A stretch of DNA of 36,972 bases from Nitrospinaceae bacterium (GCA_965223665.1 CBDCXH010000001.1:1-36972), one strand, 5' to 3'. Shown: positions 3,042 to 36,972, counted from the first letter of the stretch. Numbers and translations: made by a program. The notes: generated by a model from the sequence alone, not told the origin.

Positions 3042-3042
3042 T

Positions 3043-9190: not shown

Positions 9191-9250
9191 TAATAATTAA
9201 TCCAAACTAAGAAACAACAAAGCGAAAGCTTTTTAATAGGAGGTTTTAAA

Positions 9251-10198: not shown

Positions 10199-10220
10199 AA
10201 AATTTTAGTTCTAAGAATTT

Positions 10221-10250
10221 AGGCGGGGTTTAAACTCCGCCTTAATTTAA
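10221..10250 (+). terminator. Probable intrinsic terminator after the capsid gene
   Basis: Hairpin AGGCGGGGTT-TA-AACTCCGCCT followed by an AT-rich tail. Confidence 0.65.
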
Positions 10251-10278
10251 AACCTAAATAACAATAAAGGAAAAGTTT

Positions 10279-10752: not shown

Positions 10753-10758
10753 AAGTTA

Positions 10759-11567: not shown

Positions 11568-11578
11568 GAGTCTTCACG

Positions 11579-12616: not shown

Positions 12617-12652
12617 TTTGTAATTTTTAATTTGAATTAAAAAGGAGTTGTT

Positions 12653-13051: not shown

Positions 13052-13359
13052 TAACCTTTCTCCAGGAAGACATTCCCGCATTGGAGGAAGATTATAACAA
13101 TACACTGTTTGAAGCAGAGCGGGACGGGCAGGATTTAGATTTTGCCCGGGAGAATCACAGGTATTACAAATTCATTGATCAGTTTACCGATGAATTTAAA
13201 AACTGGGTTCACTGGATACATCGATGTGTATTTTTAAAAAGAGGCGGCTATCCATTCGAGAAAAACGATTTAGACATGAAAGATTGGTTGGCAATGGGAA
13301 TTTTAGAAAACCATTTGGAAGGTAAAAAACAGCAAGCATTTTTTGGGATTAATAAGTAA
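13042..13359 (+). CDS. Tail chaperone GT extension made by -1 programmed frameshift
   Basis: Heptamer AAAAAAC (13042-13048); the -1 frame (KLITFLQEDIP...) stays open to the tape-measure start. Confidence 0.75.
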   Translation, partial: KKLITFLQEDIPALEEDYNNTLFEAERDGQDLDFARENHRYYKFIDQFTDEFKNWVHWIHRCVFLKRGGYPFEKNDLDMKDWLAMGILENHLEGKKQQAFFGINK

Positions 13360-21997: not shown

Positions 21998-22009
21998 GGA
22001 GGTATTACT

Positions 22010-22465
22010 ATGGGTGGAGTAACCAATCGAGGGAAATATAAATTCTTAGAAGAAAAGTTCCGTGGAGTGGCCGCTCCTACGAATTATTACATTGCTTTGG
22101 CGGATGATTCCGTGGTCCCGGGTCCGGATACGAATTTGGTGAGTGACATTGCGGAAATTCCGGGAGGAAATGGTTATACAACCGGGGGAATTTCATTAGC
22201 TAAAAACGCCACCGACTTTGACGTGCTCACGGAAGATGATACCAACGACCGCGCCTTGATCCAGATTAAGGATATTGTGTGGACGGCTGGAGGCGGTCCA
22301 ATACCATCAAGCGGTAGCGGCGCCCGTTATGCTTATTTAACAGATGATAACGTGACAGTAGCCAATCGCGAAATTATTGCCTGGTTCGACCTCGGATCAA
22401 ACCGTATCGTTAGTGACACTCAACCGCTCACACTTCAAGATAGTGAATTGCGTTTGACTGAGTAA
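22010..22465 (+). CDS. Virion structural/fibre assembly protein
   Basis: EI.GGNGYTTGG and VWTA.GGPI motifs; RBS AAGGAGG. Confidence 0.65.
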   Translation: MGGVTNRGKYKFLEEKFRGVAAPTNYYIALADDSVVPGPDTNLVSDIAEIPGGNGYTTGGISLAKNATDFDVLTEDDTNDRALIQIKDIVWTAGGGPIPSSGSGARYAYLTDDNVTVANREIIAWFDLGSNRIVSDTQPLTLQDSELRLTE

Positions 22466-22522
22466 TCAACCACTAAGTTAAGGAAAAATTATTTAACAAT
22501 TAAGCATTTATACGGAGGCGTT

Positions 22523-22846
22523 ATGTTTCAAATCAAATTACCGGACTGGATCAAAGTCAATGAAGATACCAAGGAAAAAGTTAGTTTAACCATCGACACC
22601 GAAACGGCTTACGACTTGTATTTGCAAAAATACAATTTTAAGGAAGTGGATCAATTTGCTTTGGAAGTCGTGCGGCGTTGTTTAACCGAAGATCTTAAAA
22701 AGATTTTCAACAAGCCGATGCACTTGACATTGAATCGGTGCGAAAAATACAAATTATCAGAATACAAACCAGGCAAAGGCGAAGCGGCTGCCAACCTGGA
22801 ATGGAAAAAGTTTTACAAGCCGATGCCTAAAACTGCGGTGGCTTAA
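22523..22846 (+). CDS. Hypothetical protein
   Basis: 107 aa, RBS GGAGG. Confidence 0.65.
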   Translation: MFQIKLPDWIKVNEDTKEKVSLTIDTETAYDLYLQKYNFKEVDQFALEVVRRCLTEDLKKIFNKPMHLTLNRCEKYKLSEYKPGKGEAAANLEWKKFYKPMPKTAVA

Positions 22847-23160
22847 TGCCTGTCCGCAAGATTGAAAGAACCAAAGCAGGAATTATGGTCGATGGCCAGT
22901 CCATCGACTATTCCCTTTTGCCCGGAAGCAACAACACCCAAAAGGCTGCAGCATTACAAATCGGGTTGCAGGCTATCATCGATTACAAAATAGATATTAG
23001 CCAAATTGAAGACGGAGACCCGCGAAAAACTTCGGACCCTAAAAAACTAAAAGAGTTTTATGAGGGGGACAAAATAGTTTTTCGCTCCGATACCGTCACC
23101 GTGACCTGGAACACCGAAAGAAACGACTTTGATATTGACATCAACCCCATAAAAGAATAA
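22846..23160 (+). CDS. Hypothetical protein
   Basis: 104 aa, TAATG-coupled on both sides. Confidence 0.65.
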   Translation: MPVRKIERTKAGIMVDGQSIDYSLLPGSNNTQKAAALQIGLQAIIDYKIDISQIEDGDPRKTSDPKKLKEFYEGDKIVFRSDTVTVTWNTERNDFDIDINPIKE

Positions 23161-25859: not shown

Positions 25860-26167
25860 CTACAACTGGTTTTTTCCAAGATAAAACCCGTGGCCCCACA
25901 ATTTTTAAGGATCCCGATTCCACGCTGGATTATACGTTCGATTGGAACGATTGGCTGGATGATGGGCAAACCATCTTAAGTGCCAACGCCACACCGGAGC
26001 CAAACGGTGTCACCAAAGATCAACCGGAGCAAATTTCAAACGGTTTGGTTACGGTCCGGGTGAGCGGTGGACTTGTCGGAAACGTGCACGGCCTTACTTG
26101 TAGAATTACGACCAATAATGGTCAAGTGGATGAACGCACCATTTACTTTGAAATCATCGAGCGATAA
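25856..26167 (+). CDS. Fibre-tail adaptor-like protein
   Basis: KDPDSTLDYTFDW..WL and V.VSGG..G....TC.ITT..G..DERT motifs. Confidence 0.75.
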   Translation: MTTTGFFQDKTRGPTIFKDPDSTLDYTFDWNDWLDDGQTILSANATPEPNGVTKDQPEQISNGLVTVRVSGGLVGNVHGLTCRITTNNGQVDERTIYFEIIER

Positions 26168-27523
26168 ATGACTTATTGGGTGGCAAATGGCGGATCCGTT
26201 GCGCCGGGTCCCGGTGGAGGTGAGGTCAACGACCTGGATAACCTTGGTGTGGGTCATGGTTGGTACTCGCACAAAGACGGCCTCATCATGTACCTTAAAT
26301 CGTTATTGGCCGGGACTAACATCAATATTGATGTTCTGACCAATGAACTCCGGATCAATGCGATTTCACCGTTCGCCCATATCTACAATGTAATGGATTA
26401 CGGCGCCGTTGGCGACGGCGTGGCCGATGATCGTGGGGCCATTCAAGCGGCGATCGACGCGGCCGTGGCGGATCCAAAGGGTGGTAAAGTTTACATGCCA
26501 CCTGGGAAATATAAGATCGTCGGGCTTCCCACGGCCACAGAAATCTGGGAAGGCAAAACGCTGGAAAACGGAATCCACATTCCGGATTATAGAAACACCA
26601 TCACCACCACCGAACCTCGTGTCCAATTATTAGGCGCCGGTCCGGGACTCACCCATTTAATTCCGGTAAGAAGTAACACTGCCAACGCAATGTTCACCGT
26701 CCGTTGTGAATTGGCTTATGCAGAGGTGGGCGGTTTTTCTATTAACGGTGAGATCCCCAACACCAACACCACCGACCACGTGATTGGCCTGGCCGTAGTT
26801 CCCAACCATGTCAATAGCCCCACCCAGGTAGCCCGTTACTCCTACGGGTTTTACCACAGCATAAAAATGGAGCGATGTTCCGAGGGAATCTTAATGATGG
26901 GGGGATGGGACGGAGTTTCAGGCGATCGCGGCCAGCATTATTGGTGCACGTTTATGAACATCATCATGCGCCGTGGACGTCGAGGCATTTACCTAGCTGA
27001 TAAAATTAGCGGCGCATCCATTGTTAACAGTAATTTATTTATTCAGTGCCAGGTACAGCACAGTAATGCCGCTTATTATATCGAGGGTGGCGACACCAAC
27101 ACCTTTGTTCATTGCACTGCGGACAATATTCAGTTCGGCACCTTCCCGCTCGCCACACCAACGGGAACTTACATTCTTAGAACCCCACCGGTAAACACGC
27201 AATTTGGCAATGAGCAAAACCGCTTTTATTCCTGTCCTAATGAAGACAGCACCCGGAACGCCTGGATTGACGGCCGCGGAACAGAAATTTACGGGTACAC
27301 CTGGGAGTCTAGCAAGAACGATTTCTTTTGCGATGATATGTCGATATGGACCAGCCATTGGTTCAAGCCGGTGGGTTGGACTGCAAGCGAACGCGATTTC
27401 TTATGGCCTAATGGTGCACCGTTTGGGGGGTTGACCTTTTACAACACAACCGACGGCCGGTTGGAAACCTGGGATGGTTCCGCGAACTGGAAATCCGGAA
27501 ACACCATTGTGCACACACCTTAA
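26168..27523 (+). CDS. Tailspike/depolymerase, pectate-lyase-like beta-helix
   Basis: NVMDYGAVGDGVADDRGAIQAAIDAA..GGKVYMPPGKY, followed by Asn-rich beta-helix-like repeats. Confidence 0.85.
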   Translation: MTYWVANGGSVAPGPGGGEVNDLDNLGVGHGWYSHKDGLIMYLKSLLAGTNINIDVLTNELRINAISPFAHIYNVMDYGAVGDGVADDRGAIQAAIDAAVADPKGGKVYMPPGKYKIVGLPTATEIWEGKTLENGIHIPDYRNTITTTEPRVQLLGAGPGLTHLIPVRSNTANAMFTVRCELAYAEVGGFSINGEIPNTNTTDHVIGLAVVPNHVNSPTQVARYSYGFYHSIKMERCSEGILMMGGWDGVSGDRGQHYWCTFMNIIMRRGRRGIYLADKISGASIVNSNLFIQCQVQHSNAAYYIEGGDTNTFVHCTADNIQFGTFPLATPTGTYILRTPPVNTQFGNEQNRFYSCPNEDSTRNAWIDGRGTEIYGYTWESSKNDFFCDDMSIWTSHWFKPVGWTASERDFLWPNGAPFGGLTFYNTTDGRLETWDGSANWKSGNTIVHTP

Positions 27524-27540
27524 TTTGGAAAGGGAATTAT

Positions 27541-27804
27541 GTGGCGAATTCTAAAAACTCTAGCTCTGGTAATGGTAATGGCCTGGCGATATCTGGGCGA
27601 TTGGTTGCACAGTGTCTTGTCTTGGCGATAGTGGGGATCCTCACCTGGGCGGTGGTGAGTGTCAATGAACTCCAAGTGGAACATTCCAAACTAGATACCC
27701 GTGTTTCTGAATTTCATAAGAGGTATTACATCGACAACCAAAGACATCAATTTAGGCATGATCAATTGAATCGAAAAGTCGATGACCTATGGAATAGACG
27801 GTAA
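27541..27804 (+). CDS. Small single-TM plus coiled-coil protein, holin-like
   Basis: TM segment LVAQCLVLAIVGILTWAVVSV; last gene of the late operon. Confidence 0.5.
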   Translation: MANSKNSSSGNGNGLAISGRLVAQCLVLAIVGILTWAVVSVNELQVEHSKLDTRVSEFHKRYYIDNQRHQFRHDQLNRKVDDLWNRR

Positions 27805-27830
27805 TCATAGGCAAATTGAAGGTAATGAAT

Positions 27831-28550
27831 CTAACCTTTTTCTTCTTTTTTTTCGTCTGCAATTTTAATAATCTCGTTTAGGTTTTGTTGTCTTTCTTCC
27901 CTGTGGACATACCATTCTTTAAAAAGAAACTCTAAAAGTTGAATTAATTTTTCGGCTTCCCCGGGTTCTACATTAATAATTAGATCTACATCTTTTTCCA
28001 TGTGAGCACCAATATTTCCTATATTCCGGACGGCATCAATGGCTTGCCACGTGGTGGAATCGATCCGGTCTTTTAAAGCGTCGATTTCTTGTTTTAAGGT
28101 GTACTTATCAGTTATTTCCCAAAAATCTCTTATCATACCTTGTAGTGCCCGACGGCATAACGTGGCTGCAGCCTTGGGGCTTTTATCTAAAATGCTACAG
28201 GCTTCGTAATAGTCTTCTCTAATTTGCTCAGGAACACAAGCAGGTTGAGGTTTTGATTTAGAATCAGGACGAAGCAACCAATGATTGGAGGTTACAATTA
28301 TCGAACCTCTACCGCCACCTTGACGGTCCACCCAAACCAGTGAGGATTCTAATACTATTTCTCTGCACTTTTTATTGGGGCAAACTATCGCTTTGTTTGC
28401 AATATACATTTGTTTTTCAAAGCTACTATATTCAGATTCTTTAATTACAGTCCTAACGTAGGTTTCAATTTCCTCGGTTATGGTTGCATGGCCACCACAA
28501 AAAGGACACTCCCACGGATAACTTTTTTTTGGATCTAATATTTTTGTCAT
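27831..28550 (-). CDS. DUF4145 (HEPN-like) protein with N-terminal Zn-ribbon
   Basis: CPFC..CPNKKC; DYYEA......SPKAAATLCRRALQ; RNIGNIGAH. Confidence 0.85.
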   Translation of the reverse strand: MTKILDPKKSYPWECPFCGGHATITEEIETYVRTVIKESEYSSFEKQMYIANKAIVCPNKKCREIVLESSLVWVDRQGGGRGSIIVTSNHWLLRPDSKSKPQPACVPEQIREDYYEACSILDKSPKAAATLCRRALQGMIRDFWEITDKYTLKQEIDALKDRIDSTTWQAIDAVRNIGNIGAHMEKDVDLIINVEPGEAEKLIQLLEFLFKEWYVHREERQQNLNEIIKIADEKKEEKG

Positions 28551-28594
28551 CTACCCAACTCCCAATGCGGCTAAAACTTCTTGGTGATCCATTC
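28551..28594 (-). repeat. Displaced copy of the lipoprotein gene's 3' end (MDHQEVLAALGVG*)
   Basis: 28558-28594 is identical (37 bp) to 29288-29324; the last codons differ only synonymously. Confidence 0.95.
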
Positions 28595-28595
28595 T

Positions 28596-29276
28596 TTAAT
28601 TATTTTCTTCTTTTGGTTTGCTGGGATTCGTCACCCCTAACAAAGATCGGAATTCAGCCTCTATTTTATCCATTAACCCCGGAACAACCTCAGTCAAGGC
28701 ATTTAAAGCCTCTCGCCAAGCTTCGCCTGTTTTGTCAGAGGGTCTACCGCTTAATTCTTCGGTAGTTCGCCAAAATCTTAATCTATCAGCAGGTTCAATG
28801 GCCTGAAATATAAGTTCTTCAATTTCCCTACATAGTTTCTCAGGAAAATAAATTTTTTTTGTATTATAAAACTTTTTAAAAACAAAATAATTTTTATTAA
28901 AATCCGTATTTTCTTCATTTCCTGTTTGGATGAAACTATTTGTTGAGTTCAATAAATTTACTAAAAATGAGTATAATTCGCCAATAATTTCTAACCTTTT
29001 TTCCACAAGCAAAGTTTTGCTTTGTTTGTATTCTAAACTATTTATCTGAAGGTCATGGCTGGCTTTTTGGATTTCAAGTTTACTTTCTGTTTCTAACTCA
29101 TTTTTAAATGCTTCTTTTTCCTTATCAAGCTCAGACTTATATTTTGCTAAATTTTTCGATAATGAGTTTTCAATTATTTGTTTTGCAAAAAATTTAGCCG
29201 CACCAATTATTGCTCCGACAACAACTGAAATACCACCTAATGTTTTTATTACACTCCAAATATCCGCCAAATCCAT
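28596..29276 (-). CDS. N-terminally membrane-anchored coiled-coil protein, unknown function
   Basis: TM segment LGGISVVVGAIIGAA, then a K/E-rich coil; very AT-rich. Confidence 0.8.
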   Translation of the reverse strand: MDLADIWSVIKTLGGISVVVGAIIGAAKFFAKQIIENSLSKNLAKYKSELDKEKEAFKNELETESKLEIQKASHDLQINSLEYKQSKTLLVEKRLEIIGELYSFLVNLLNSTNSFIQTGNEENTDFNKNYFVFKKFYNTKKIYFPEKLCREIEELIFQAIEPADRLRFWRTTEELSGRPSDKTGEAWREALNALTEVVPGLMDKIEAEFRSLLGVTNPSKPKEENN

Positions 29277-29280
29277 ACTC

Positions 29281-29841
29281 TCATCCCACTCCCAATGCGG
29301 CTAAAACTTCTTGGTGATCCATTCCTTTTTTGTTTTCCATTAATTCAGTGCCGGTTTGAATTTCCCAGCAACCCGGGCACGATTGTATTTTTTTTAAAAT
29401 TCCTTTATCCATGACCATCGCTTGATCGGGTTGGTACAATAAAATTTCGTGAGTGTTATCCCATACAAAACGTTTTGGGGGACCCATCGCATAAAACAGT
29501 TTATACACGTCATCCCCAGGTTGAATCTTTTTTTGATCCAGTCGACTTAATGTTTCCGGATCCCATTTTTTTTTCTTTTGCAGCGTATTCCATCGAAACG
29601 CATAGGCAATATTATAGTTCTTTTGGTTCACCTCATATTTTTTCACTTCTGGGAATTGCTTATAAAAATCAAACCAGTTTTGCGGAGTTAGTTGATTGTC
29701 AAGGTATGCAGCAATTGGGACACCATTATATTGATTAACCTCCGATGCACTTTTAAAGCCAACCGGTTTGTAATAATATTCCGTGCCCGCGCAACCAATC
29801 AGGAATAATAAGGGTATTGAAATAAAAAGAAATCGATTCAT
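29281..29841 (-). CDS. Lipoprotein B (paralog of 32088-32675)
   Basis: Start MNRFLF at 29841 (RBS GAGGAG); lipobox LIGC; CxxC near the C-terminus. Confidence 0.85.
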   Translation of the reverse strand: MNRFLFISIPLLFLIGCAGTEYYYKPVGFKSASEVNQYNGVPIAAYLDNQLTPQNWFDFYKQFPEVKKYEVNQKNYNIAYAFRWNTLQKKKKWDPETLSRLDQKKIQPGDDVYKLFYAMGPPKRFVWDNTHEILLYQPDQAMVMDKGILKKIQSCPGCWEIQTGTELMENKKGMDHQEVLAALGVG

Positions 29842-29860
29842 GGAATACTCCTCTTTATGA

Positions 29861-29923
29861 TGGATTTCTTTAAACCTTATTAAATTCCGCTTAGGCAATC
29901 AAGAAAATTTTGACATATCGAAT
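29861..29923 (-). promoter_or_regulatory. Promoter repeat R5
   Basis: Minus strand TTGATT(29902-29897)-17 bp-TAAGGT(29879-29874). Confidence 0.8.
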
Positions 29924-30084
29924 ATTTTTATAGTAAAAGGGACTATCGATTAAGCGAAAAAACTTTATTGTTTCGTCAATGACCGGAAAATCAAACTTGT
30001 GGGGGTTGCCGGACACCAATAAATAACAGGAGCTAGGGCATTCTTAATTTTCACTAGAGATACTGAACTGGGAGGATATTTATT

Positions 30085-30762
30085 ATGAAAGCTACCACGT
30101 TAGCAGTTATGTCAGGCGGGTTGGATTCAACAGTGCTAGGCCAAAAACTTAAGTCGGAAGGTGTTCCATTTCGAGCGATATATTTCGACATTGGTTACCT
30201 TCCGCGGGTAGCAGAAAGAAACGCTGCTAAATATGCTTGTTTCCAATTAGATACGCCGTTAGAAATCGTCAATCTAAGTGGAATGTTTGAAATGGTTTCA
30301 GGTTTCGTTCCAAATGAAATGCTTGGTTTGGATGAGGCTGATAAAGGACAGCCAAAATCGGAAGTACACATTCCCGGTGATCCAGATTATGTAAGTGGGT
30401 TTCATTGTATAACTTCCCTTGCTTCATACTATGCCTTACTAGCGGAAATTGAAACTATCAGTGTTGGGTTGATTCGTAATCAAGTAGATTACAATGATCG
30501 TTTAAAAAACTTCATCGCAGAGTTTCCAGCTTGCGCAGGCCACTTAAACCCAAGTCGTAATTTTCGACTGGAAGCACCATTTGCTGGAATGTATAAATCG
30601 GAAGTTGTAGAACTCGGCGTAAAGCTTGGTGTAAATTTAGAGCGTACTTGGAGTTGCTATAATGGTGGTAGGCAACATTGTGGTGTTTGCCCCGGATGTA
30701 ATGGCCGTAAGCAGGCGTTTCAGGATGCTAAAGTCGATGATCTCACAAGTTATGACGAATGA
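30085..30762 (+). CDS. Divergent QueC-family (PP-loop, Zn-binding) protein
   Basis: SGGLDS PP-loop; K.EVVELG..LGV..E.TWSCY...HCGVCPGC..R; RBS GGAGG. Confidence 0.88.
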   Translation: MKATTLAVMSGGLDSTVLGQKLKSEGVPFRAIYFDIGYLPRVAERNAAKYACFQLDTPLEIVNLSGMFEMVSGFVPNEMLGLDEADKGQPKSEVHIPGDPDYVSGFHCITSLASYYALLAEIETISVGLIRNQVDYNDRLKNFIAEFPACAGHLNPSRNFRLEAPFAGMYKSEVVELGVKLGVNLERTWSCYNGGRQHCGVCPGCNGRKQAFQDAKVDDLTSYDE

Positions 30763-30818
30763 AAATTGCGTCATTCTGAAGATATCGATCATTAACTTTT
30801 ATCCATAAGTTAATATTC

Positions 30819-30852
30819 AGGCAATCAAGAAAAATTTGGCGTATTAAATCAA
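30819..30852 (-). repeat. Truncated promoter repeat R4 (-35 half only)
   Basis: aggcaatcaagaaaaatttggcgtattaaatcaa; similarity stops before the -10 element. Confidence 0.85.
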
Positions 30853-30888
30853 GTGGTCCGGAGGGTATTGTTTTAACAGTTGGTTGTA
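30844..30888 (-). pseudogene. 3' remnant of a homolog of ORF 34776-34997
   Basis: Translates YNQLLKQYPPDHLI* versus YGKLLKQSRQGKLI*, in the same register to the repeat. Confidence 0.7.
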
Positions 30889-30934
30889 TTATGGAAAAAA
30901 CATGAATTAAATTTATTTATAGGTTTAACTTCCA

Positions 30935-31366
30935 TTAGTTTGTACAAGGAAAAGCTTCCGAAATTGCCTTAATAACTAACGCTGCGGCGTCCAAATGAAG
31001 TTTTTCTGGGTGATCATTTAACCATTTTTTTACAATTTTTTCCATTTGGCCAGCGGTGTAACCTAAGGGGAGATCAATACAAATATTTTTAAAACCTTCC
31101 TTACTTTGTTTACCTGGGTTAAAAGAGGAAAATTCGTGTGTATGAGTAAGGTTTCCTTTAAAATCAGCCATAAACTTAATAGAAGAAGTAATCCCAAAAA
31201 TATACCCTGTGCAGTAAGCACTATTCTGAAACTTTATGGGTTCACGGGTGTCAGTGCATATATTTTGCAACGTATTTCCAGAAAAACCATTCCCACTTTC
31301 ACCCAAATCAGCAAAAGAAAAGAATACAATAAGCCCTAATACAGCTATTGACGTTGATGGTTTCAT
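30935..31366 (-). CDS. Rap1a/Tai-family immunity-like exported protein
   Basis: Signal peptide from ATG 31366; GN.L...C, C.GYI.G, IC..P......Q...IV.KWL..HPE.LH..AA.LV..A...AFPC. Confidence 0.85.
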   Translation of the reverse strand: MKPSTSIAVLGLIVFFSFADLGESGNGFSGNTLQNICTDTREPIKFQNSAYCTGYIFGITSSIKFMADFKGNLTHTHEFSSFNPGKQSKEGFKNICIDLPLGYTAGQMEKIVKKWLNDHPEKLHLDAAALVIKAISEAFPCTN

Positions 31367-31393
31367 GATTTCTTCTCGCAAAAATTTTTTAAA

Positions 31394-31452
31394 GATTTTC
31401 CCCAACCTAATCCATTCAGCTAAGGCAATCAAAAAAAATTGGGAACATTAAA
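31394..31452 (-). promoter_or_regulatory. Promoter repeat R3
   Basis: TTGATT(31432-31427)-17 bp-TAGGTT(31409-31404). Confidence 0.8.
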
Positions 31453-31596
31453 GGTTTTGCTCGGGGTCATCGGCGAGTTTAAAAGCATACGGTTTCCCGC
31501 CACCGTGGCACAGCCAGTCTTAATCCAACCCACGCAGGCATGTGGGCTTTGAGGAGCAGTCTTTCCAGTCGGGTGCCAAACGTTGTCTTTCTCCCT

Positions 31597-32064
31597 TCAA
31601 TCAAGGTTTGCTAATTTGTTCATCTTATCTATTAGGGGTTGCACAGGTTTCAAACCTTTTCCACTCCCTAACATTATAGATTGTGCTTGAATCTGAGCAC
31701 TGAGCGCGTTTAGTTTAGCCGTGACTTCCATAGAATGTACTTGTTTAGATAATGCCTCCTCTGCTTTTTCCTGGGCATCGGCAAACCTTTTCATTTCTTT
31801 TCTTTGAGCTTCTAGTTCTTCCCTTTGATAGACCAACTCTTGTCTTTGAAGTAAGATTGCGAAAATTACCCCAGCAAATGCAAAGCCTGAGAAAAGAGAG
31901 TTCAATCCTCCAAACATATCACCCCAAACACCAGCATTTTCTGCTTTACCTATAAAAGTAACTACTAGGCACCAATAAATAAGCCATACAGCGAAAACTC
32001 CTAAAATAAACAACAGGAAATGTTTCATTGAAAAAACTGTCTCACTTGATTTCGTGTTGCTCAT
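31597..32064 (-). CDS. Two-TM plus coiled-coil protein resembling the N-terminal module of 'putative abortive infection' proteins
   Basis: GVWGDMFGGLNSLFSGFAFAGVIFAILLQRQEL..QREEL motif; likely start ATG 32064 (RBS GAGGAG). Confidence 0.7.
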   Translation of the reverse strand: MSNTKSSETVFSMKHFLLFILGVFAVWLIYWCLVVTFIGKAENAGVWGDMFGGLNSLFSGFAFAGVIFAILLQRQELVYQREELEAQRKEMKRFADAQEKAEEALSKQVHSMEVTAKLNALSAQIQAQSIMLGSGKGLKPVQPLIDKMNKLANLD

Positions 32065-32087
32065 TATATTCTCCTCTTGTCCCATAT

Positions 32088-32675
32088 TCACCCCACTCCC
32101 AAAGCGGTTAATACTTCCGGTTCTGCCATGCCGCGCCTATCACCCATCATTTCGTCACCCGAAGGAAGTTGCCAACACCCCTTACAGGATCGAATTTCTT
32201 TTAGGACTCCATGGTCCATAATCAATGCTTTGTCCGGTTCATAGATTAGAATTTCATGATCATTATTCCAAATAATTCGCCTTGGGGGGCCGAGTGCATA
32301 AATAGCTTTGAAGTGATTATCACCTGGTTGAGTTTTATTTTTATCCAACCGTTGAACTGTGGTTTTGTCCCATTGTTGTTTTCGTTTTAAAGTGGTCCAT
32401 CGCCAGGCGTAGGCGGTGTAATAAGGATGATACTCCATAGTGTTTCCAAATTGATTGGCCTGTTGGATATCGTTCCAATACTCCGGAAACTCTTTATAAA
32501 ACGTCCGCCATTCTTCCCGGGATAATTGTAGGGCTAAATAATGAGTGGTCGGGTATTGAATGTAAGGCTTTACTTCATCAATCGTATTAAACCCTGCCGG
32601 TTTAAAATTCCGCTCTAGGTTGACACAACCAAAAATGAAAAATAATATTGTTATCAAAGAAACTATTCGCTTCAT
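32088..32675 (-). CDS. Lipoprotein A
   Basis: Lipobox IFGC; colinear with lipoprotein B, ending EVLTALGVG*. Confidence 0.85.
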   Translation of the reverse strand: MKRIVSLITILFFIFGCVNLERNFKPAGFNTIDEVKPYIQYPTTHYLALQLSREEWRTFYKEFPEYWNDIQQANQFGNTMEYHPYYTAYAWRWTTLKRKQQWDKTTVQRLDKNKTQPGDNHFKAIYALGPPRRIIWNNDHEILIYEPDKALIMDHGVLKEIRSCKGCWQLPSGDEMMGDRRGMAEPEVLTALGVG

Positions 32676-32689
32676 TTTTAACTCACTTT

Positions 32690-32986
32690 TTATAATTCAA
32701 TCCTTTTTAAAACTTCGACAGGTCCATCTAATTGAAACCCTTCGGCTTCAATTTCGTCCGGAGTCAACTCTATATAATCCACACAATCGGACCAAGGGGA
32801 AGGGGGGATTTCTGCTCCAACATTTTTTGGGTTTGACGGTATCCAATGACTATAATCTTCTGCAAATGTTTGAGCAGTTTTTTCGCTAGCTGCTCTTATG
32901 AAGAGTCCAATAGCCCCAGATTTACAGTGTCCCCATCTTTCATCGTTTTTTTTTGATTGAATAGGAGTTACTTTAAAAATTTTCAT
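32690..32986 (-). CDS. Hypothetical protein (98 aa)
   Basis: Likely start MKIFKV at 32986 with RBS GGAG. Confidence 0.65.
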   Translation of the reverse strand: MKIFKVTPIQSKKNDERWGHCKSGAIGLFIRAASEKTAQTFAEDYSHWIPSNPKNVGAEIPPSPWSDCVDYIELTPDEIEAEGFQLDGPVEVLKRIEL

Positions 32987-33005
32987 AATACTTCTCCAAT
33001 GAGAT

Positions 33006-33281
33006 TCACCACTTTTTTTCTTTGGGGATTTGGGATTCGCGCATCCCACCATTTCTGCTTATTCTGGGTTCTCGCAAATATTGAGCTAGTTCCTGTAAAA
33101 TTATATTTTGTTTCTGAACATTTTCATTAGTCCGCTTTACGTACACTTTGATTCGGTACACAAACCAGGGCAAAAAGATCGCCAACACAAATAAAACGAT
33201 GGCGACAATCCAAACTAAAAGCAATCCGCTTCCCGCACCTAATACATCTAACGAGTCATCAAACTTATAAGGAGAATTCAT
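33006..33281 (-). CDS. Small single-TM protein
   Basis: Hydrophobic LLLVWIVAIVLFVLAIFLPWFV; first gene after R2. Confidence 0.7.
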   Translation of the reverse strand: MNSPYKFDDSLDVLGAGSGLLLVWIVAIVLFVLAIFLPWFVYRIKVYVKRTNENVQKQNIILQELAQYLREPRISRNGGMRESQIPKEKKW

Positions 33282-33297
33282 AAGTCACCTGTTTTTA

Positions 33298-33364
33298 TGG
33301 ATTTTCCCTCAACCCTAATCCATTCCGTTTAGGCAATCAAGAAAAATTTGGCATGTTAAATTAG
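33298..33364 (-). promoter_or_regulatory. Promoter repeat R2
   Basis: TTGATT(33340-33335)-17 bp-TAGGGT(33317-33312); nearly identical to R1. Confidence 0.85.
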
Positions 33365-33434
33365 TTTTCCGCTTCGCAAAGGTTTTCGATTATCTTGTTT
33401 TCCCTGAACGGCGCCTATCGGCCATAAGCGGACA

Positions 33435-34643
33435 TTAACCCGCATATATTTTTGACATCTGATTTTTCAAACGTTGTAGCAACTCATCATAAGTCATTAC
33501 TTCAACATTTTTTAAAGATGTCCTTAATATTCTAAAATCCGCCTCTTTCTCAGGTGTGTCTAGCTGGTCTGTATGTCCCATAATTACAACAGCCCTTGGT
33601 CTAACAACAGAAACTACCACTCCTCGTTCTCTCGCAACATCTTCTGCAAGATTTGACGCTTTTCTTTCAGCATTGAATAAATATTTTTCTGCTTGCATAA
33701 GTGCCTTAACAGCGTCAGAGCTCCAATAGAAATTACCTCTGTCAGTCGTTGCGGAGAGCAACTTCGTTACTGGCTTTTTGATTTCAAATAGGTCTAGGTA
33801 TCCCTGCGAATCTACTAAACCAAAATCCACTTTACGCTGACTGCCTAAAACCACATTCAATTCATGAATTACGGAAATATATTTCGAGTCGATCAGATAT
33901 AAATGTTTTTGAAGAAAGTCACCCCATTTCGCTTCTGTCTCGTTCTTTACGAGCATCCTTTTATAAGTGTTGATTGTTTCTTTTAGAGCTACTTCGTCGA
34001 CTTTTAGCTTTGCAGCACCAAACAGTTTTCTTCTTCGAGCAGCGGAAGAGTATTTACCAGAAAGCAAACTCTCCATAAAATCGAGGTATTTTTCAACATC
34101 ATCTGCTTCTAAGTGTTCAATGATGCTGGGATCAAGATTACGAGTCACACGAGCCGCGCGTTGACGCCCAGGAAGCTCAGCTTTATGAAATTTTGAAGGA
34201 AACTCCTGATGGAAAAATTCATCTACAGCTAAACTTCTTTCCCTTTTATTTTCGTTTGATAGCTCTGTTAGTCGACTTTTGAGCTGTTTTAGTCCGTCAT
34301 ATCCCAGAATAAATGTGAGCTTTCCACCATATGAACGGAGTGTGCTAGTACCATTTTTTACAACGCGAAAGACTTTAACTTCCTTACCTTGAAATTTTTT
34401 TACGAAATAGTAGCTCAGACCGGCTTTAAAATAGCCAAGCTCAGAAATCTCGGGGGGAATTCTTTTAAATCCGATAATTTCTACTTTATTTGTAATGAAT
34501 TCATGGCGAGGATAGAAATCAATCTTTTCATTTTCAGCATCTATTGTAAATGTAAGATGACGCTCTCCTGGTTTCTCAGTGTCGATTATATAAACTGATT
34601 CTGTACCATCATCATGTATTTCTTTATCTGTTTCTAATGGCAT
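33435..34643 (-). CDS. sduA: Shedu (DUF4263) anti-phage nuclease
   Basis: E..W..FL, VDF..VD..G..DLFEIKKP, W.S...KA..Q..KY, RPRAVVIMG, FR..R..L..VEVMTYDELL.R. Confidence 0.9.
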   Translation of the reverse strand: MPLETDKEIHDDGTESVYIIDTEKPGERHLTFTIDAENEKIDFYPRHEFITNKVEIIGFKRIPPEISELGYFKAGLSYYFVKKFQGKEVKVFRVVKNGTSTLRSYGGKLTFILGYDGLKQLKSRLTELSNENKRERSLAVDEFFHQEFPSKFHKAELPGRQRAARVTRNLDPSIIEHLEADDVEKYLDFMESLLSGKYSSAARRRKLFGAAKLKVDEVALKETINTYKRMLVKNETEAKWGDFLQKHLYLIDSKYISVIHELNVVLGSQRKVDFGLVDSQGYLDLFEIKKPVTKLLSATTDRGNFYWSSDAVKALMQAEKYLFNAERKASNLAEDVARERGVVVSVVRPRAVVIMGHTDQLDTPEKEADFRILRTSLKNVEVMTYDELLQRLKNQMSKIYAG

Positions 34644-34720
34644 TGTGGAATTCCGATCCTATTAATCCAATACTCTCTTCAGTGTCCGCTTTGGGTCGAA
34701 AGCCGTCACATTTTTTTTCG

Positions 34721-34784
34721 TGGATTCCCCAACCCTAATCTATTCCGTTTAGGCAATCAAGAAATATTTGGCATATTAAATCAA
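34721..34784 (-). promoter_or_regulatory. Promoter repeat R1
   Basis: TTGATT(34760-34755)-17 bp-TAGGGT(34737-34732); overlaps the stop of ORF 34776-34997. Confidence 0.85.
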
Positions 34785-34997
34785 CTTACCTTGGCGGGAC
34801 TGTTTCAGTAATTTCCCATAAAGCCCGGAGTTAAAGAATTTCGTTTGGCTTTTTGAGTTTCGAAGTAATGGGCATGGCTCGTATTCCATCATTACCTCTT
34901 CCACGCTTTCTTTAGTTTTAATATCAATAACTTTTGATTCTGGGGGTGGTGCCGGTTTTACGATCGCGGTATTGTTTTTTTTGGCCTTGCGCGTCAA
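34776..34997 (-). CDS. 73-aa hypothetical protein coupled to the repressor
   Basis: TTG start overlaps the repressor's TGA; its C-terminus is conserved at protein level in two displaced remnants. Confidence 0.65.
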   Translation of the reverse strand: MTRKAKKNNTAIVKPAPPPESKVIDIKTKESVEEVMMEYEPCPLLRNSKSQTKFFNSGLYGKLLKQSRQGKLI

Positions 34998-35449
34998 CCC
35001 TGAGCGAAATTTTGGCTTTTCGCTTTGGCAAGTTCTTCTTTTAGGTGGGCATTTTCCTTCCTCAGTTCTTTTACCTCAACCTTTAAATTTGAAACGTCCT
35101 CTATTAAATCTTTGATCAATTGGCGCATATTCTCCCCCTCTTCAACCTTCGAATTTTCAATAGCATTCGATTCTATCTTTTGAGACTGGTTTTCTTCAAG
35201 AGGGTTATAGGGATATTTTCCTAATTTTTCCCTAATAATGTTTGGGTTGTCAAATAATTCACTGACAGAACATTTGAATATAATTGATAATTTTTTCAGT
35301 TTTTTCGCATCAAGTTTTTTAGGGGGATTATTCTCCCATGTGTTTATCGTTTGATAAGAAACTCCAATAAAATCAGCTAGTTGAGTCTGTGACAACCTCA
35401 TGTATTTTCTTATTAACTGGACGTTTTCTTTAAAGTTTTCTATATTCAC
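34994..35449 (-). CDS. XRE-family HTH repressor (CI-like) with C-terminal coiled coil
   Basis: IRKYMRLSQTQLADFIGVSYQTINTWEN; divergent from the early operon; no S24 peptidase domain seen. Confidence 0.9.
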   Translation of the reverse strand: MNIENFKENVQLIRKYMRLSQTQLADFIGVSYQTINTWENNPPKKLDAKKLKKLSIIFKCSVSELFDNPNIIREKLGKYPYNPLEENQSQKIESNAIENSKVEEGENMRQLIKDLIEDVSNLKVEVKELRKENAHLKEELAKAKSQNFAQG

Positions 35450-35482
35450 TTGAAAATTTTATATAGTTTAATTGATATTTTG

Positions 35483-35513
35483 CTTGACAATTTTTATCAA
35501 GTAATACTATATT
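35483..35513 (+). promoter_or_regulatory. Rightward early promoter overlapped by an operator-like palindrome
   Basis: TTGACA(35484)-18 bp-TATATT; dyad CTTGAcAA-N3-TTaTCAAG at 35483-35501. Confidence 0.65.
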
Positions 35514-35724
35514 CATAATTACCACCCAGATTCGGTGGTTGTGGCCTAGACGCAATTCAGGCCTACGAAATAAATGCTAGTTCATAAACTTTAACTTCAG
35601 GGGAACTATGCACCGTAACATAAAATTCCAATTCGATCAATTTTGCCCGAGGTTGGGGACCCCTGAAGCCCTAAACTTGGGTATTTTTTTGACCTCGGCC
35701 AACCCCGAAGTCAAAAGTCTTTGC

Positions 35725-35779
35725 GCCCGGATTATTGCTTACCTCCTCAAGGAATCAGTAATCCGGGTTTCTTTTTTTT
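35725..35779 (+). terminator. Intrinsic terminator
   Basis: Stem CCCGGATTATTG/CAGTAATCCGGG followed by TTTCTTTTTTTT. Confidence 0.8.
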
Positions 35780-35791
35780 ATGGTGAATTCA

Positions 35792-36274
35792 ATGTGTAAC
35801 CGCAAACCACCAAAACAAAAAGAGAAGGAATTATTCAAAGAGTATCCCACAGGGGGACTTGGTTGGGTGTTTGCTGTATTGGTTGTGTTTTGGGTATTAA
35901 TGATTTACTTAATTGCTTCCTGCGATCTAGCCTTTGGTGCCGAACGTAAAAAAGAAAGTCATTACTCTAAAAACTTTTGTGAATGGCAACGTGGCCAACC
36001 CGAAGTCCGACTCACCACGAAATTTAATAAAACACCTTTATATTTCCGGGCCGATTGTGTGAACTCCCGCCTGGCTTATGAAGTGGATTTCGCCAAAAAG
36101 TTCTACGAGGCTATTGGCCAATCTTTGCTGTATGCGTACTTGACTGATAAACGACCGGCCATTGGTTTGATCATACAAACCAGTAAAGATTGGAAACGTT
36201 ATTACTTAATGTGGGAAGTCATCAAGCATTACAACTTGCCCATCGAGATATTTTTTATTTTCAGGTATCAGTGA
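35792..36274 (+). CDS. Membrane-anchored/exported protein with restriction-endonuclease-like motif
   Basis: TM helix, then E.RL...RADC......EVDFA.K..EAIGQ.L.YA..T.K.P. Confidence 0.65.
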   Translation: MCNRKPPKQKEKELFKEYPTGGLGWVFAVLVVFWVLMIYLIASCDLAFGAERKKESHYSKNFCEWQRGQPEVRLTTKFNKTPLYFRADCVNSRLAYEVDFAKKFYEAIGQSLLYAYLTDKRPAIGLIIQTSKDWKRYYLMWEVIKHYNLPIEIFFIFRYQ

Positions 36275-36371
36275 CACCCGGCCCTGGTTAATGGGCATAC
36301 TCGTGTAGAGTGCGGCCCGTGTCGAAACCCCCTCCCTTCGGCACGGGCCAAAATTACTTTTAGGAGGGAAT

Positions 36372-36497
36372 TTGGAATTTTGGATATGGATCAAACAAAA
36401 ACTGTTTGGAATTTTAGTATCAATACTTTTTCTTTTGATCGTCCTTGCAGTTTGGGGCTTTGATCAAATCGTCAAAAAATGGAGTGGTAAACCATGA
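36372..36497 (+). CDS. 41-aa hydrophobic peptide (not in the ORF track)
   Basis: AGGAGG (36362) then TTG; MEFWIWIKQKLFGILVSILFLLIVLAVWGFDQIVKKWSGKP*; ATGA overlap with the next ORF. Confidence 0.6.
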   Translation: MEFWIWIKQKLFGILVSILFLLIVLAVWGFDQIVKKWSGKP

Positions 36498-36685
36498 ACT
36501 TTTTTAACTGGATGGATTATTGGGGGATGAATGTTTTGTCCACGTTTATTCAAGAGCATCCTTACCTTTTGATGTGGGGATCCATTGCCATATCCACCGC
36601 GGCCGCCTCAATGTGTATTTTAGAAATTTCAGGGGACTTGGAAGATGTTTCAACAAAAAAATACAAAAACAACCAAAAGCAGTAA
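36494..36685 (+). CDS. Small membrane protein
   Basis: 63 aa with a hydrophobic segment; translationally coupled. Confidence 0.5.
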   Translation: MNFFNWMDYWGMNVLSTFIQEHPYLLMWGSIAISTAAASMCILEISGDLEDVSTKKYKNNQKQ

Positions 36686-36972
36686 ACCGAAAAAGCGTTC
36701 CATCTATTACCGCTTGGTGGACGCGGAACAAATTAAATTGTCGGAATCCGGCAAAGCTGTTCAGGTGCGGGTCAATTTGGTGAAACCGGACGGAAGCCGG
36801 CGGACTTGGAACTTATATTTTCCGGAGAAAAGAATCTCGATCAAACCGGATGGAGTTTTCGTTCCGCAATGGATGTTGGAATTAAAAAACAAAGAGCTTG
36901 TGGAAAATGCGATGAAGTTTTTTAAGATCGATTCGGAAGATAAATTGCGGGAACAAAATCGATTTGAAGAAA
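36645..36972 (+). CDS. 3'-truncated hypothetical protein
   Basis: ATG at 36645, open to the window end (MFQQKN..SESGKAVQV..FVPQWML..). Confidence 0.6.
   Translation, partial: MFQQKNTKTTKSSKPKKRSIYYRLVDAEQIKLSESGKAVQVRVNLVKPDGSRRTWNLYFPEKRISIKPDGVFVPQWMLELKNKELVENAMKFFKIDSEDKLREQNRFEE

What the first reader, a model, noticed from the sequence alone, without database searches (positions are those of the whole stretch)
27831..34997. Integron-like defence/exclusion cassette array delimited by five copies of a promoter repeat
Seen: five direct copies of a ~60-bp element (R1 34721, R2 33298, R3 31394, truncated R4 30819, R5 29861) with an invariant AGGCAATCAA. On the minus strand four of them read TTGATT-17 bp-TA(G/A)G(G/T)T. 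They separate 0.6-1.9 kb blocks of unrelated AT-rich cargo: Shedu | TM protein, hypothetical, lipoprotein A, Abi-like membrane protein | Rap1a-like | QueC-like | lipoprotein B, coiled-coil protein, DUF4145. Known: morons carry their own promoters, and T4-type PeSL repeats shuffle genes. Inference: one promoter next to the repressor serves as both expression signal and repeated entry point for cargo, making an expandable lysogen-expressed defence array with no recombinase visible in the window.
Basis: partly seen in the sequence, partly recalled or inferred. Interest (0 to 1): 0.9.

Follow-up and report, generated by a model that had tools for sequence, protein, structure and literature searches.

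The report
Portable promoter heading swappable phage defence genes
A temperate phage of a marine nitrite-oxidiser relative carries several accessory and defence gene blocks, each behind a copy of one short promoter-like sequence that also fronts defence genes on the host chromosome, and related DNA has different genes behind the same sequence.

Summary
The five repeats are real: AGGCAATCAA occurs 5 times against 0.12 expected. There are four ~79-nt copies and one truncated copy. On the minus strand the full copies read T-tract, TTGATT, 17 nt, TA(G/A)G(G/T)T. Each lies 30-88 nt before a co-oriented start codon.

The element is not phage-specific. The host chromosome, two integrative elements and the one same-genus genome hold about 17 more copies. 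They front SIR2-HerA, three Shedu subtypes, TIR proteins, PDC-M48B and TPR/NACHT genes, and also non-defence genes.

Conservation peaks at TTG and TA...T with a fixed 17-nt spacer. That is the pattern of a sigma-70-type promoter.

A sister prophage in the same genome shares the tail genes and the R1 block but none of the 7.2 kb of cargo. Three syntenic chromosomal hot spots keep the element while the cargo behind it is unrelated.

No integron integrase, attC-like fold or excision joint was found.

Best reading: a portable promoter that also serves as a homology anchor for cargo exchange, PeSL-like and not an integron. Transcription is untested. This scan has noted similar border elements in other prophages.

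The parts
34994..35449 (-). cI-type HTH repressor (151 aa) with a C-terminal coiled coil, at the head of the minus-strand block
   Evidence: HTH_3 8.9e-11. PHROG transcriptional repressor/regulator families. 39% identical to the sister prophage repressor, with a divergent HTH and a near-identical C-terminus.
34712..34790 (-). R1, full promoter-like repeat (-35 TTGATT 34755-34760, -10 TAGGGT 34732-34737)
   Evidence: 81% identical to C1:2242086-2242184 and 90.5% to C1:3031628-3031722 together with the leader.
34683..34699 (-). M2 motif (TCGACCCAAAGCGGACA) in the leader between R1 and Shedu, part of the ~97-nt block shared by three mobile elements
33435..34643 (-). Shedu (SduA) nuclease, 402 aa, first cargo block
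   Evidence: SduA_C 6e-31. PADLOC SduA 4e-34.
33418..33434 (+). Inverted, diverged copy of the M2 motif directly after the Shedu stop codon
   Evidence: Inverted repeat I4. 3-mismatch hit.
33292..33370 (-). R2, full promoter-like repeat (-35 33335-33340, -10 33312-33317)
31597..33281 (-). Second cargo block of four genes: 91-aa membrane protein (33006-33281), small ORF (32690-32985; this 98-aa start is my reading, the ORF listing lists 32690-33052), lipoprotein A (32088-32675), 164-aa membrane/coiled-coil protein (31597-32091)
   Evidence: ORFs, sequence. No family over threshold. Lipoprotein A is 45% identical to lipoprotein B.
31489..31506 (-). Terminator-like hairpin between block 2 and R3
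   Evidence: a pattern match only.
31384..31462 (-). R3, full promoter-like repeat (-35 31427-31432, -10 TAGGTT 31404-31409)
30935..31366 (-). Rap1a-like secreted protein (type VI immunity family), third cargo block
   Evidence: Rap1a 1.9e-16. Start codon read.
30816..30873 (-). R4, truncated repeat. It keeps the upstream half through TTGATTGCCT, lacks the -10 half, and has no co-oriented gene behind it
30085..30762 (+). QueC-like PP-loop ATPase on the opposite strand
   Evidence: QueC 8e-28. PADLOC QueC 3e-18. phrog_1550.
29854..29932 (-). R5, full promoter-like repeat (-35 29897-29902, -10 TAAGGT 29874-29879)
27831..29841 (-). Last cargo block: lipoprotein B (29281-29841), 226-aa membrane-anchored coiled-coil protein (28596-29276), DUF4145 / PD-T7-4-like protein (27831-28550)
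   Evidence: DUF4145 1.6e-13. PD-T7-4 2.2e-15. phrog_1305 4e-40..
28555..28607 (-). 53-nt remnant of a lipoprotein-gene 3' end, 91% identical to 29285-29337, between the coiled-coil gene and DUF4145. It is a recombination scar
   Evidence: Direct repeat D3. Reading. Short-read contigs break at this repeat.
27524..34683 (.). Variable cargo region as a whole. It has no nucleotide similarity to the sister prophage, is bounded by the tail-fibre stop and the R1 leader, and has GC 0.35-0.40 against 0.43-0.54 in most virion-gene bins (9 kb onward)

Best explanation
R is a portable sigma-70-type promoter module of about 55-60 bp: a T-rich tract, TTGATT, exactly 17 bp, TAGGGT, then TG-G-AAA. It is specific to this bacterial genus. 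It has been re-used in front of many unrelated accessory genes, often anti-phage genes, on the chromosome, on integrative islands and in temperate phages. In this phage, four full copies start four leftward transcription units in the moron region between the tail-fibre gene and the repressor: Shedu; a four-gene membrane/lipoprotein block; Rap1a-like; lipoprotein-coiled-coil-DUF4145. A fifth copy is a dead remnant left by a rearrangement that brought in the oppositely oriented QueC-like gene. Because every copy offers 50-100 bp of shared sequence flanked by unrelated DNA, ordinary homologous recombination between copies can replace, add or delete whatever lies downstream. Such recombination could occur between co-resident prophages, islands and the chromosome. 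The array then grows as a stack of promoter-plus-cargo units without a dedicated recombinase. Shown: the repeats, their geometry, their genus-wide distribution, and cargo replacement at them. Inferred: that they fire as promoters, that recombination at them is homologous, and that the cargo is expressed in lysogens and protects.
For: (1) Position. In all 21 copies examined (4 full in the window, 11 elsewhere in G000, 6 in G001) the -10-like hexamer lies 30-151 nt upstream of a co-oriented ORF start. (2) The spacer is exactly 17 nt in all 21, while its sequence varies between subfamilies. Information content is highest at the -35 hexamer and at T1, A2 and T6 of the -10, and lower at the inner GGG. 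These are the positions that matter most for sigma-70 (established knowledge). (3) Strict TTGATT-N17-TAGGGT occurs 9 times in the genome against 2 and 1 for reversed and swapped controls. 7 of the 9 also carry the flanking T-tract. nhmmer finds 5 chromosomal copies at E below 1e-4. (4) Genus-specific: G000 has 13 matches against 1 control match and same-genus G001 has 7 against 0. The other 39 relatives have 0-4 matches each, close to their controls. (5) The cargo behind it is diverse and defence-rich: SIR2+HerA, Shedu x3 subtypes, TIR effector, TIR_2, PDC-M48B, TPR+NACHT. It also includes DUF2130, DUF937 and a CBM96 protein. (6) The sister prophage on C1 shares the tail genes at 80-90% nucleotide identity up to the tail-fibre stop (27524) and the R1+leader block (34683-34779, 81%). 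It shares nothing in between, and its cargo is AbiJ-like, Endonuclease I, a different Shedu (26% identity), Dcm-Vsr-EcoRII and 2 TPR proteins. (7) The three G000/G001 locus pairs with conserved flanks on both sides (of the 10 G000 loci compared with the 6 G001 loci) keep R, and in two of them about 100 nt upstream of it, while the cargo has no BLASTP similarity; the one hit among all cargo pairs compared is a single decayed NACHT fragment. Homology ends 2-12 nt past the -10. (8) R plus DUF2130 is conserved as one unit at different loci in the two genomes. (9) A chromosomal paralogue of the phage lipoprotein + membrane-protein pair uses a canonical TTGATA-16-TATAAT promoter and not R, so R was grafted onto the phage copies.
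Against: There are no transcription data, because no RNA run holds this DNA. R matches the TTGACA/TATAAT consensus at only 7 of 12 positions and is not flagged by the consensus scan. The host's tRNA genes and the phage early promoter use near-consensus sites, so R may be weak or may need a factor. Only two genomes of the genus are available and they are kin, so the 21 copies are not independent. No relative shares some but not all of the phage's cassettes, so R2, R3 and R5 are not themselves shown to be breakpoints. Only the R1 block, the truncated R4 and the chromosomal copies are. About half of the cargo has no recognisable defence function.
Confidence: 0.6

Rival explanations
1. R is the cis-element of a dedicated regulon. 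A genus-specific activator, repressor or alternative sigma factor recognises the whole ~55-bp element and switches many accessory and defence genes on together, for example on infection or stress. The phage has plugged its cargo into that host circuit. Cargo turnover at R is then secondary.
For: Conservation extends beyond the two hexamers: CCCAAATTTT upstream, GAAT-N3 before the -10 and TTG-G-AAA after it. The non-consensus bases (TTGATT, TAGGGT) are the same in about 20 copies, whereas housekeeping promoters here look canonical. The G-rich stretch after the -10 would be unusual for a constitutive promoter (inference). Cargo is enriched in defence genes.
Against: No candidate regulator was found. 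The one extra ECF sigma gene beside an R locus is broken in G001, which still keeps R. Shared non-consensus bases are equally explained by common descent of the copies. Subfamilies share upstream flanks, which points to copying and not to convergence. Not all cargo is defence.
Confidence: 0.2
2. R is an attachment site for a site-specific recombinase. In that case the array is a true integron-like cassette system, with an enzyme encoded elsewhere inserting and excising promoter-plus-gene cassettes.
For: The repeats sit between blocks of unrelated cargo. The GTTG(R)G(R) after the -10 loosely resembles the integron core GTTRRRY (my reading; the consensus is recalled). All chromosomal copies between 1.41 and 3.03 Mb lie on one strand, opposite to their flanking genes.
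Against: No integron integrase scores over cut-off in the genome (best 82.8 bits against a cut-off of 265). None of the 13 tyrosine-recombinase hits lies in the window. R has no conserved hairpin or dyad (0 predicted pairs in 19 sequences) and no Rfam match. Homology breakpoints differ: inside the spacer for R4, 2-12 nt past the -10 at the chromosomal loci, and about 60 nt downstream in the three mobile elements. The blocks hold 1-4 genes.
Confidence: 0.07
3. R is a selfish miniature repeat (MITE/REPIN-like) that spreads in intergenic DNA and has no role in expression. Its position before genes reflects only where insertions are tolerated.
For: The genus is rich in dispersed intergenic repeats. 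Three queries gave 104-165 BLAST hits each, and the hits of the one query mapped lie concentrated in C1 1.4-2.3 Mb, where most chromosomal R copies lie. R is sometimes flanked by the REP-like M2 motif, once as an inverted pair.
Against: 21 of 21 copies point toward the next ORF at 30-151 nt. The spacer length is invariant and conservation follows the sigma-70 contact pattern, not the ends of the element. R has no terminal inverted repeats of its own. No Y1/RAYT transposase was found in the genome.
Confidence: 0.08
4. The repeats are operators of the phage repressor, so that all cargo is controlled by the immunity protein.
For: R1 lies about 200 nt downstream of the repressor gene on the same strand.
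Against: The same element fronts chromosomal genes far from any prophage and occurs in G001, which lacks this phage. The sister prophage has a repressor with a different HTH (39% identity) yet the same R. R has no dyad symmetry.
Confidence: 0.03

Closest known systems
PeSLs (promoter-early stem-loops) of T4-type phages (Arbiol et al. 2010, PMC2839356; Comeau et al. 2014, PMC4122927; abstracts read)
   Same: A short conserved regulatory cassette is repeated between non-essential genes in a hyperplastic region. Close relatives differ by insertion, deletion or replacement of the genes between copies. The proposed mechanism is homologous recombination at the repeats.
   Different: PeSLs combine a strong sigma-70 promoter with a terminator stem-loop and occur in lytic T4-like myoviruses. 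R has a weaker consensus match (7 of 12), no conserved stem-loop, sits in a temperate siphovirus, and is shared with the host chromosome and islands. PeSL mini-circles were shown physically; none is seen here.
Mobile or re-used promoters (Nijveen, Matus-Garcia and van Passel 2012, PMC3575422; abstract and opening paragraph read)
   Same: Highly similar upstream sequences stand in front of non-homologous genes within and between genomes.
   Different: That work is a general survey. Here the family is tied to prophage and defence cargo, is stacked 4-5 times within 7 kb, and coincides with cargo-replacement boundaries.
Phage morons and prophage defence hot spots (P2/P4 hot spots, Rousset et al. 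2022, PMC9122126, listing and abstract start only; the moron concept is recalled)
   Same: Extra, AT-rich, self-expressed genes lie between conserved phage genes, on the repressor strand and next to the tail genes. Content differs between close relatives and is rich in anti-phage systems.
   Different: Morons normally have individual promoters. Here one promoter sequence is re-used for every unit and is also the host's own element for chromosomal defence loci.
Integrons carrying anti-phage cassettes (bioRxiv 10.1101/2024.07.02.601686 and 10.1101/2024.07.02.601719; listing and abstract starts only)
   Same: Arrays of unrelated defence genes are separated by a repeated site.
   Different: Integrons need IntI, attI and 3' palindromic attC sites, and mostly promoterless single-gene cassettes read from one Pc. 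None of these is met here.

Membership tests
Integron / attC cassette array | Integron integrase (IntI) next to the array | tested here: not met
   TIGR02249 over the whole genome: best hit 82.8 bits against a cut-off of 265, none over cut-off. None of the 13 PF00589 hits lies in contig C2.
Integron / attC cassette array | Imperfect palindromic attC site at the 3' end of each cassette | tested here: not met
   RNAalifold on 19 copies predicts 0 pairs. R lies 5' of each block and points into it. No Rfam family hit in 27000-36972.
Integron / attC cassette array | One invariant crossover point | tested here: not met
   Breakpoints lie inside the spacer (R4), 2-12 nt past the -10 and after the leader.
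PeSL regulatory cassette | Strong sigma-70-like promoter | tested here: inconclusive
   TTGATT-17-TAGGGT keeps TTG and TA...T but matches only 7 of 12 consensus positions. The consensus scan does not list it. Activity was not measured.
PeSL regulatory cassette | Adjacent stem-loop terminator as part of the repeat | tested here: not met
   No consensus structure. Only R3 has a terminator-like hairpin upstream, and R2 has an M2 copy upstream.
PeSL regulatory cassette | Indels and replacements between close relatives bounded by the repeats | tested here: met
   Sister prophage and three chromosomal hot spots.
PeSL regulatory cassette | Circular products of repeat-repeat recombination | tested here: inconclusive
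   Contigs of 4 DNA runs from one sample at word depth 2-6 show no joints. The depth is too low to decide.
Phage moron | Extra genes between conserved phage genes, absent from a close relative, with deviant base composition | tested here: met
   27524-34683 is absent from the sister prophage. GC is 0.35-0.40 against 0.43-0.54 in most virion-gene bins (9 kb onward).
Phage moron | Own promoter active in the lysogen | not testable with these tools
   No RNA run holds the stretch.
Mobile / re-used promoter | Homologous upstream sequence before non-homologous genes | tested here: met
   21 copies aligned. Downstream proteins belong to different families, and there is no BLASTP similarity between the cargo of syntenic loci.
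Shedu defence system (first cargo gene) | SduA C-terminal nuclease domain (DUF4263) | tested here: met
   PF14082 6e-31, residues 235-389. 23 PADLOC SduA models, best 4e-34. Activity not tested.

The most novel reading that the evidence does not exclude
R is a genus-wide 'socket' for immunity genes: one regulated promoter that host chromosome, islands and temperate phages all use. Any defence module placed behind it is expressed under the same control. The shared 55-100 bp lets phage and host trade defence cargo by plain homologous recombination. That would be a recombinase-free functional analogue of an integron, spanning virus and host.
Probability: 0.22. Interest if true: 0.75.

Novelty: new variant of a known kind. 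Interest (0 to 1): 0.5.

Why it matters
If R fires as a promoter, it shows in a little-studied phylum how a temperate phage and its host share one expression signal for defence genes. It also shows how that signal marks the places where cargo is exchanged. That gives a simple sequence handle (search for R) to list the accessory and defence genes of this genus, including unannotated ones such as the lipoprotein + membrane-protein pairs and the 332-aa + TIR pair. It would extend the PeSL idea from lytic T4-like phages to temperate phages and bacterial chromosomes. It also tempers the 'integron-like' label, because no dedicated recombination machinery is indicated.

Tried and rejected
1. A first loose pattern (TTGATTGCCTNANCNGAAT) in IMG/VR and in genome contigs gave 43 and 118+ single-copy hits across unrelated phyla.

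2. A tighter phage-type pattern gave 0 hits in JGI metagenomes and 0 in IMG/VR.

3. Relatives of the phage were sought with the 899-aa tail protein, the repressor (IMG/VR) and a tail-fibre alignment (metagenomes). None was found. G001 has no copy of this phage.

4. A distant prophage in G040 (J protein 45% identical) has no comparable repeat family in the 20 kb examined beside its tail genes.

5. No RNA holder is listed for the stretch, so TSS mapping was not possible.

6. Contigs of 4 DNA runs of one sample were laid on 20000-36972. There were no joints, word depth was only 2-6, and one contig spans 31145-36444 across R3, R2 and R1. This says nothing for or against excision circles.

7. Rfam: 0 matches at E up to 1 in 27000-36972.

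8. Consensus fold of 19 copies: none.

9. An extra ECF sigma beside the SIR2-HerA locus was considered as a candidate factor. Its conserved paralogue is present across the order, and the extra copy is a broken fragment in G001, so it was dropped.

10. Y1/RAYT transposase as a mobiliser of the M2 motif: none found.

11. M2 was considered as the real cassette boundary. It also lies next to housekeeping genes (Na/H exchanger, SUI1), so it is a general REP-like motif.

12. A search for the missing half of R4 in inverted orientation beside the QueC gene, by eye, found nothing.

Full report
OBSERVATION

The invariant decamer AGGCAATCAA occurs five times in the window (29893, 30819, 31423, 33331, 34751). 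0.12 occurrences are expected, and none of 100 shuffles reaches five. The repeat finder returns a four-copy family of 79 nt at 29854-29932 (R5), 31384-31462 (R3), 33292-33370 (R2) and 34712-34790 (R1). It also returns a truncated copy at 30816-30873 (R4) that shares only the upstream half.

Read on the minus strand, the full copies are a T-rich tract, TTGATT, 17 nt, then TAGGGT (R1, R2), TAGGTT (R3) or TAAGGT (R5). The window is a whole 36,972-bp contig (C2) of a six-contig, 4.35-Mb genome. Earlier notes of this scan call the genome a marine Nitrospinaceae; I did not verify that.

The rest of the contig encodes a lambda-like siphovirus: terminase, portal, protease, capsid, tape measure and a J-like tail fibre, all on the + strand.

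ANATOMY OF THE ARRAY

The minus-strand block starts with a cI-type repressor (35449-34994; HTH_3 9e-11). It then contains the following units.

- R1 and a leader, then Shedu (34643-33435; SduA_C 6e-31).
- R2, then four genes: a 91-aa membrane protein, a small ORF, lipoprotein A and a 164-aa membrane/coiled-coil protein.
- R3, then a Rap1a-like protein (1.9e-16).
- The truncated R4.
- A QueC-like gene (30085-30762; 8e-28) on the opposite strand.
- R5, then lipoprotein B, a 226-aa coiled-coil protein and a DUF4145 / PD-T7-4-like protein.

The -10-like hexamer lies 88, 30, 37 and 32 nt before the first start codon of the four units. R4 drives nothing. It diverges from the family four bases into the spacer, and what follows is the 3' end of the convergent QueC gene.

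The label 'Abi-like' for the 164-aa protein has no support. Lipoproteins A and B are paralogues, 45% identical. A 53-nt copy of a lipoprotein-gene 3' end (28555-28607, 91% identical to 29285-29337) lies stranded before DUF4145. So recombination has also used homology other than R.

Cargo GC is 0.35-0.40, against 0.43-0.54 in most virion-gene bins (9 kb onward).

R IS NOT PHAGE-SPECIFIC

A profile of the four copies finds the element on the host chromosome C1 at 3031628 (E 1e-13), 1455579 (8e-9), 2242086 (4e-7), 1949853 (8e-7) and 1412017 (5e-5), with weaker matches elsewhere.

The strict bipartite pattern TTGATT-N17-TAGGGT occurs 9 times in the genome, against 2 and 1 for the reversed and swapped controls. 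7 of the 9 carry the same flanks.

With up to 2 mismatches, the extended pattern gives 13 matches in G000 (control 1) and 7 in G001, the only same-genus genome (control 0). It gives 0-4 matches in each of the 39 other relatives, similar to their controls. The element is therefore a property of this genus.

Genes behind the chromosomal G000 copies:

- a TIR effector-like protein
- a membrane protein plus PDC-M48B (4e-55)
- SIR2 + HerA
- DUF2130
- two unknowns
- a CBM96 protein
- Shedu of another subtype (4e-130)
- a 332-aa unknown plus a TIR_2 protein
- TPR + NACHT
- DUF937
- a 490-aa unknown on contig C3

Genes behind the G001 copies:

- a third Shedu subtype (5e-149)
- the DUF2130 orthologue
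- a TPR protein
- an AAA + HEAT pair
- two sets of unknowns

By these hits, 6 of the 11 G000 loci outside the window and 2 of the 6 G001 loci carry recognisable defence proteins. The rest do not.

WHAT KIND OF ELEMENT IT IS

I aligned 21 copies anchored on TTGATT.

- The spacer is 17 nt in every one, while its sequence differs between subfamilies.
- Information content is maximal over the -35 hexamer and at T1, A2 and T6 of the -10. It is lower at the inner GGG.
- It is also high over the upstream CCCAAATTTT and the downstream TTG-G-AAA.

TTG and TA...T at 17-bp spacing are the positions that matter most for sigma-70 holoenzyme (established knowledge). All 21 copies point at an ORF that starts 30-151 nt downstream. 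This is the signature of a promoter, but not a consensus one. R matches TTGACA/TATAAT at 7 of 12 positions and the generic scan does not list it.

The host does use canonical sites. tRNA genes carry TTGACA with TATAAT-like boxes, and none of the 44 tRNA upstream regions scores 10 or more of 12 for R. The phage's rightward early promoter is TTGACA-18-TATATT.

R has no conserved secondary structure (0 pairs in 19 sequences) and no Rfam match. Because the same non-consensus bases and flanks recur, the copies are homologous. They are one sequence copied many times, not independent promoters.

A chromosomal paralogue of the phage lipoprotein + membrane-protein pair (C1 2055829-2056992) has a canonical TTGATA-16-TATAAT upstream and no R. 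So R was grafted onto the phage copies.

COMPARATIVE EVIDENCE FOR CARGO EXCHANGE AT R

(a) Sister prophage. The same genome holds a sister prophage on C1, about 2238703-2279075, abutting tRNA-Lys. Its tail genes match the window at 80-90% nucleotide identity up to the stop of the tail-fibre gene (window 27524). The next similarity is the R1 + leader block (34683-34779, 81%), then the 3' end of the repressor gene. The 7.2 kb between has no counterpart.

The sister's cargo, in order:

- repressor
- AbiJ-like/PDC-S32 (3.5e-99)
- Endonuclease I
- R
- Shedu, only 26% identical to the window's
- a 250-aa unknown
- HTH-Dcm, Vsr, EcoRII
- two TPR proteins

The two repressors are 39% identical, with different HTH regions.

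(b) A shared block in three mobile elements. A ~97-nt block runs from ATATGCC through R to the motif TCGACCCAAAGCGGACA. It is shared by the window, the sister prophage and an integrase-bearing island at C1 3.027-3.036 Mb (90.5% to R1). Unrelated sequence lies on both sides in all three.

(c) Syntenic chromosomal hot spots. Three chromosomal loci are syntenic between G000 and G001, with conserved flanks on both sides (L171/L216, L173/L218, L179/L217). All six carry R, and the cargo proteins have no BLASTP similarity apart from one decayed NACHT fragment. Where nucleotide similarity spans R (L171/L216 and L179/L217, plus the L172/L215 pair, where only the promoter block and short downstream patches match), it ends 2-12 nt past the -10 hexamer.

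(d) R plus DUF2130 is conserved as one unit (80% over 1.34 kb, starting about 10 nt before TTGATT) but lies at different loci in the two genomes.

R therefore behaves both as a fixed 5' border behind which cargo changes and as the head of a unit that moves with its gene.

MECHANISM

I tested the integron reading.

- No integron integrase scores over cut-off.
- No tyrosine recombinase hit lies in the window.
- R has no attC-like fold.
- R lies 5' of blocks of 1-4 genes.
- Breakpoints are not at one nucleotide.

The simplest mechanism consistent with all this is homologous recombination between copies of a short shared regulatory sequence, as proposed for PeSLs in T4-type phages (PMC2839356, PMC4122927; abstracts). 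It also fits the general notion of re-used promoters (PMC3575422). R differs from PeSLs in four ways: it lacks the terminator stem-loop, it is a weaker consensus match, it sits in a temperate phage, and it is shared with the host chromosome.

Whether R needs a specific factor remains open. The only local candidate, an extra ECF sigma gene beside the SIR2-HerA locus, is broken in G001.

LIMITS

- No RNA data exist for this DNA.
- The DNA runs are low-depth contigs of one sample and show no joints.
- No other relative of the phage was found in IMG/VR or JGI metagenomes.
- A distant prophage in another genus has no such repeat.
- Only two genomes of the genus were available.
- The supplements of the cited papers were not consulted.

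VERDICT

It is wrong in calling it integron-like and phage-private.

This is a new variant of a known kind, a PeSL-like or mobile-promoter linker at moron borders. The same scan has noted comparable border elements in other prophages (e1-2645866, e1-5353858, e1-5348396). What is unusual here is that one promoter module is common to phage, islands and chromosomal defence hot spots across a genus.

Noticed in passing
G000 C1 about 1.4-2.3 Mb (e.g. L170:392-2043, 4485-4834, 5721-6216): Intergenic DNA around the chromosomal R loci is packed with dispersed 40-200-nt repeats, many with short palindromes. Three queries gave 104-165 BLAST hits each. The hits of the one query that was mapped lie almost only in this 0.9-Mb stretch. 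The same families occur in the G001 loci. Their nature is unexplained.
   Followed up: partly
window 34683-34699 (-) and 33418-33434 (+); C1 2241965, 2242168, 2243437, 3027205-3031706, 1536664-1562681; C4 4409: A second short dispersed motif, TCGACCCAAAGCGGACA, has 16 copies at up to 2 mismatches against 0 for the reversed control. It flanks the phage Shedu gene as an inverted pair and also lies beside housekeeping genes. It is REP-like, but no Y1/RAYT transposase was found.
   Followed up: partly
G000 C1 1412032-3031643: All eight well-supported chromosomal R copies are on the + strand, while the genes flanking each cassette are on the - strand. Cumulative GC skew peaks at 0.65 Mb and bottoms at 2.85 Mb, so most of these cassettes are head-on to replication. 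No explanation yet.
   Followed up: no
window 3658-4689 and 4730-5587: The large terminase subunit is split into two ORFs that match successive parts of phrog_15 (positions 334-673 and 693-950). This could be a frameshift, an intein/intron-type interruption or a real split.
   Followed up: no
G000 C1 2258520-2262251 (-): The J-like tail protein of the sister prophage is 96% identical to the window's but carries one in-frame TAG. The head-gene region of the two phages has no nucleotide similarity (window 1675-15588), so the two are mosaics.
   Followed up: no
G000 C1 1605883-1606527 (-): An extra ECF sigma paralogue (57% identical to the order-wide copy at C1 2290226) sits next to the R-headed SIR2-HerA and DUF2130 units. 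In G001 only a broken fragment remains at the syntenic place.
   Followed up: partly
G000 C1 2055829-2056992: This is a chromosomal paralogue (35-37% identical) of the phage lipoproteins, again followed by a small membrane protein. 'Lipoprotein + membrane partner' is therefore a recurring two-gene module of unknown function. It may be a surface-exclusion pair.
   Followed up: partly
G000 C1 3027242-3036037: An integrase-bearing island about 6 kb from a tRNA-Thr gene (C1 3021167) carries a PIF1-like helicase, a trypsin-like protease, DUF4238, and an R-headed trio (332-aa unknown, TIR_2 protein, 186-aa unknown). The trio is a candidate uncharacterised TIR defence system.
   Followed up: partly
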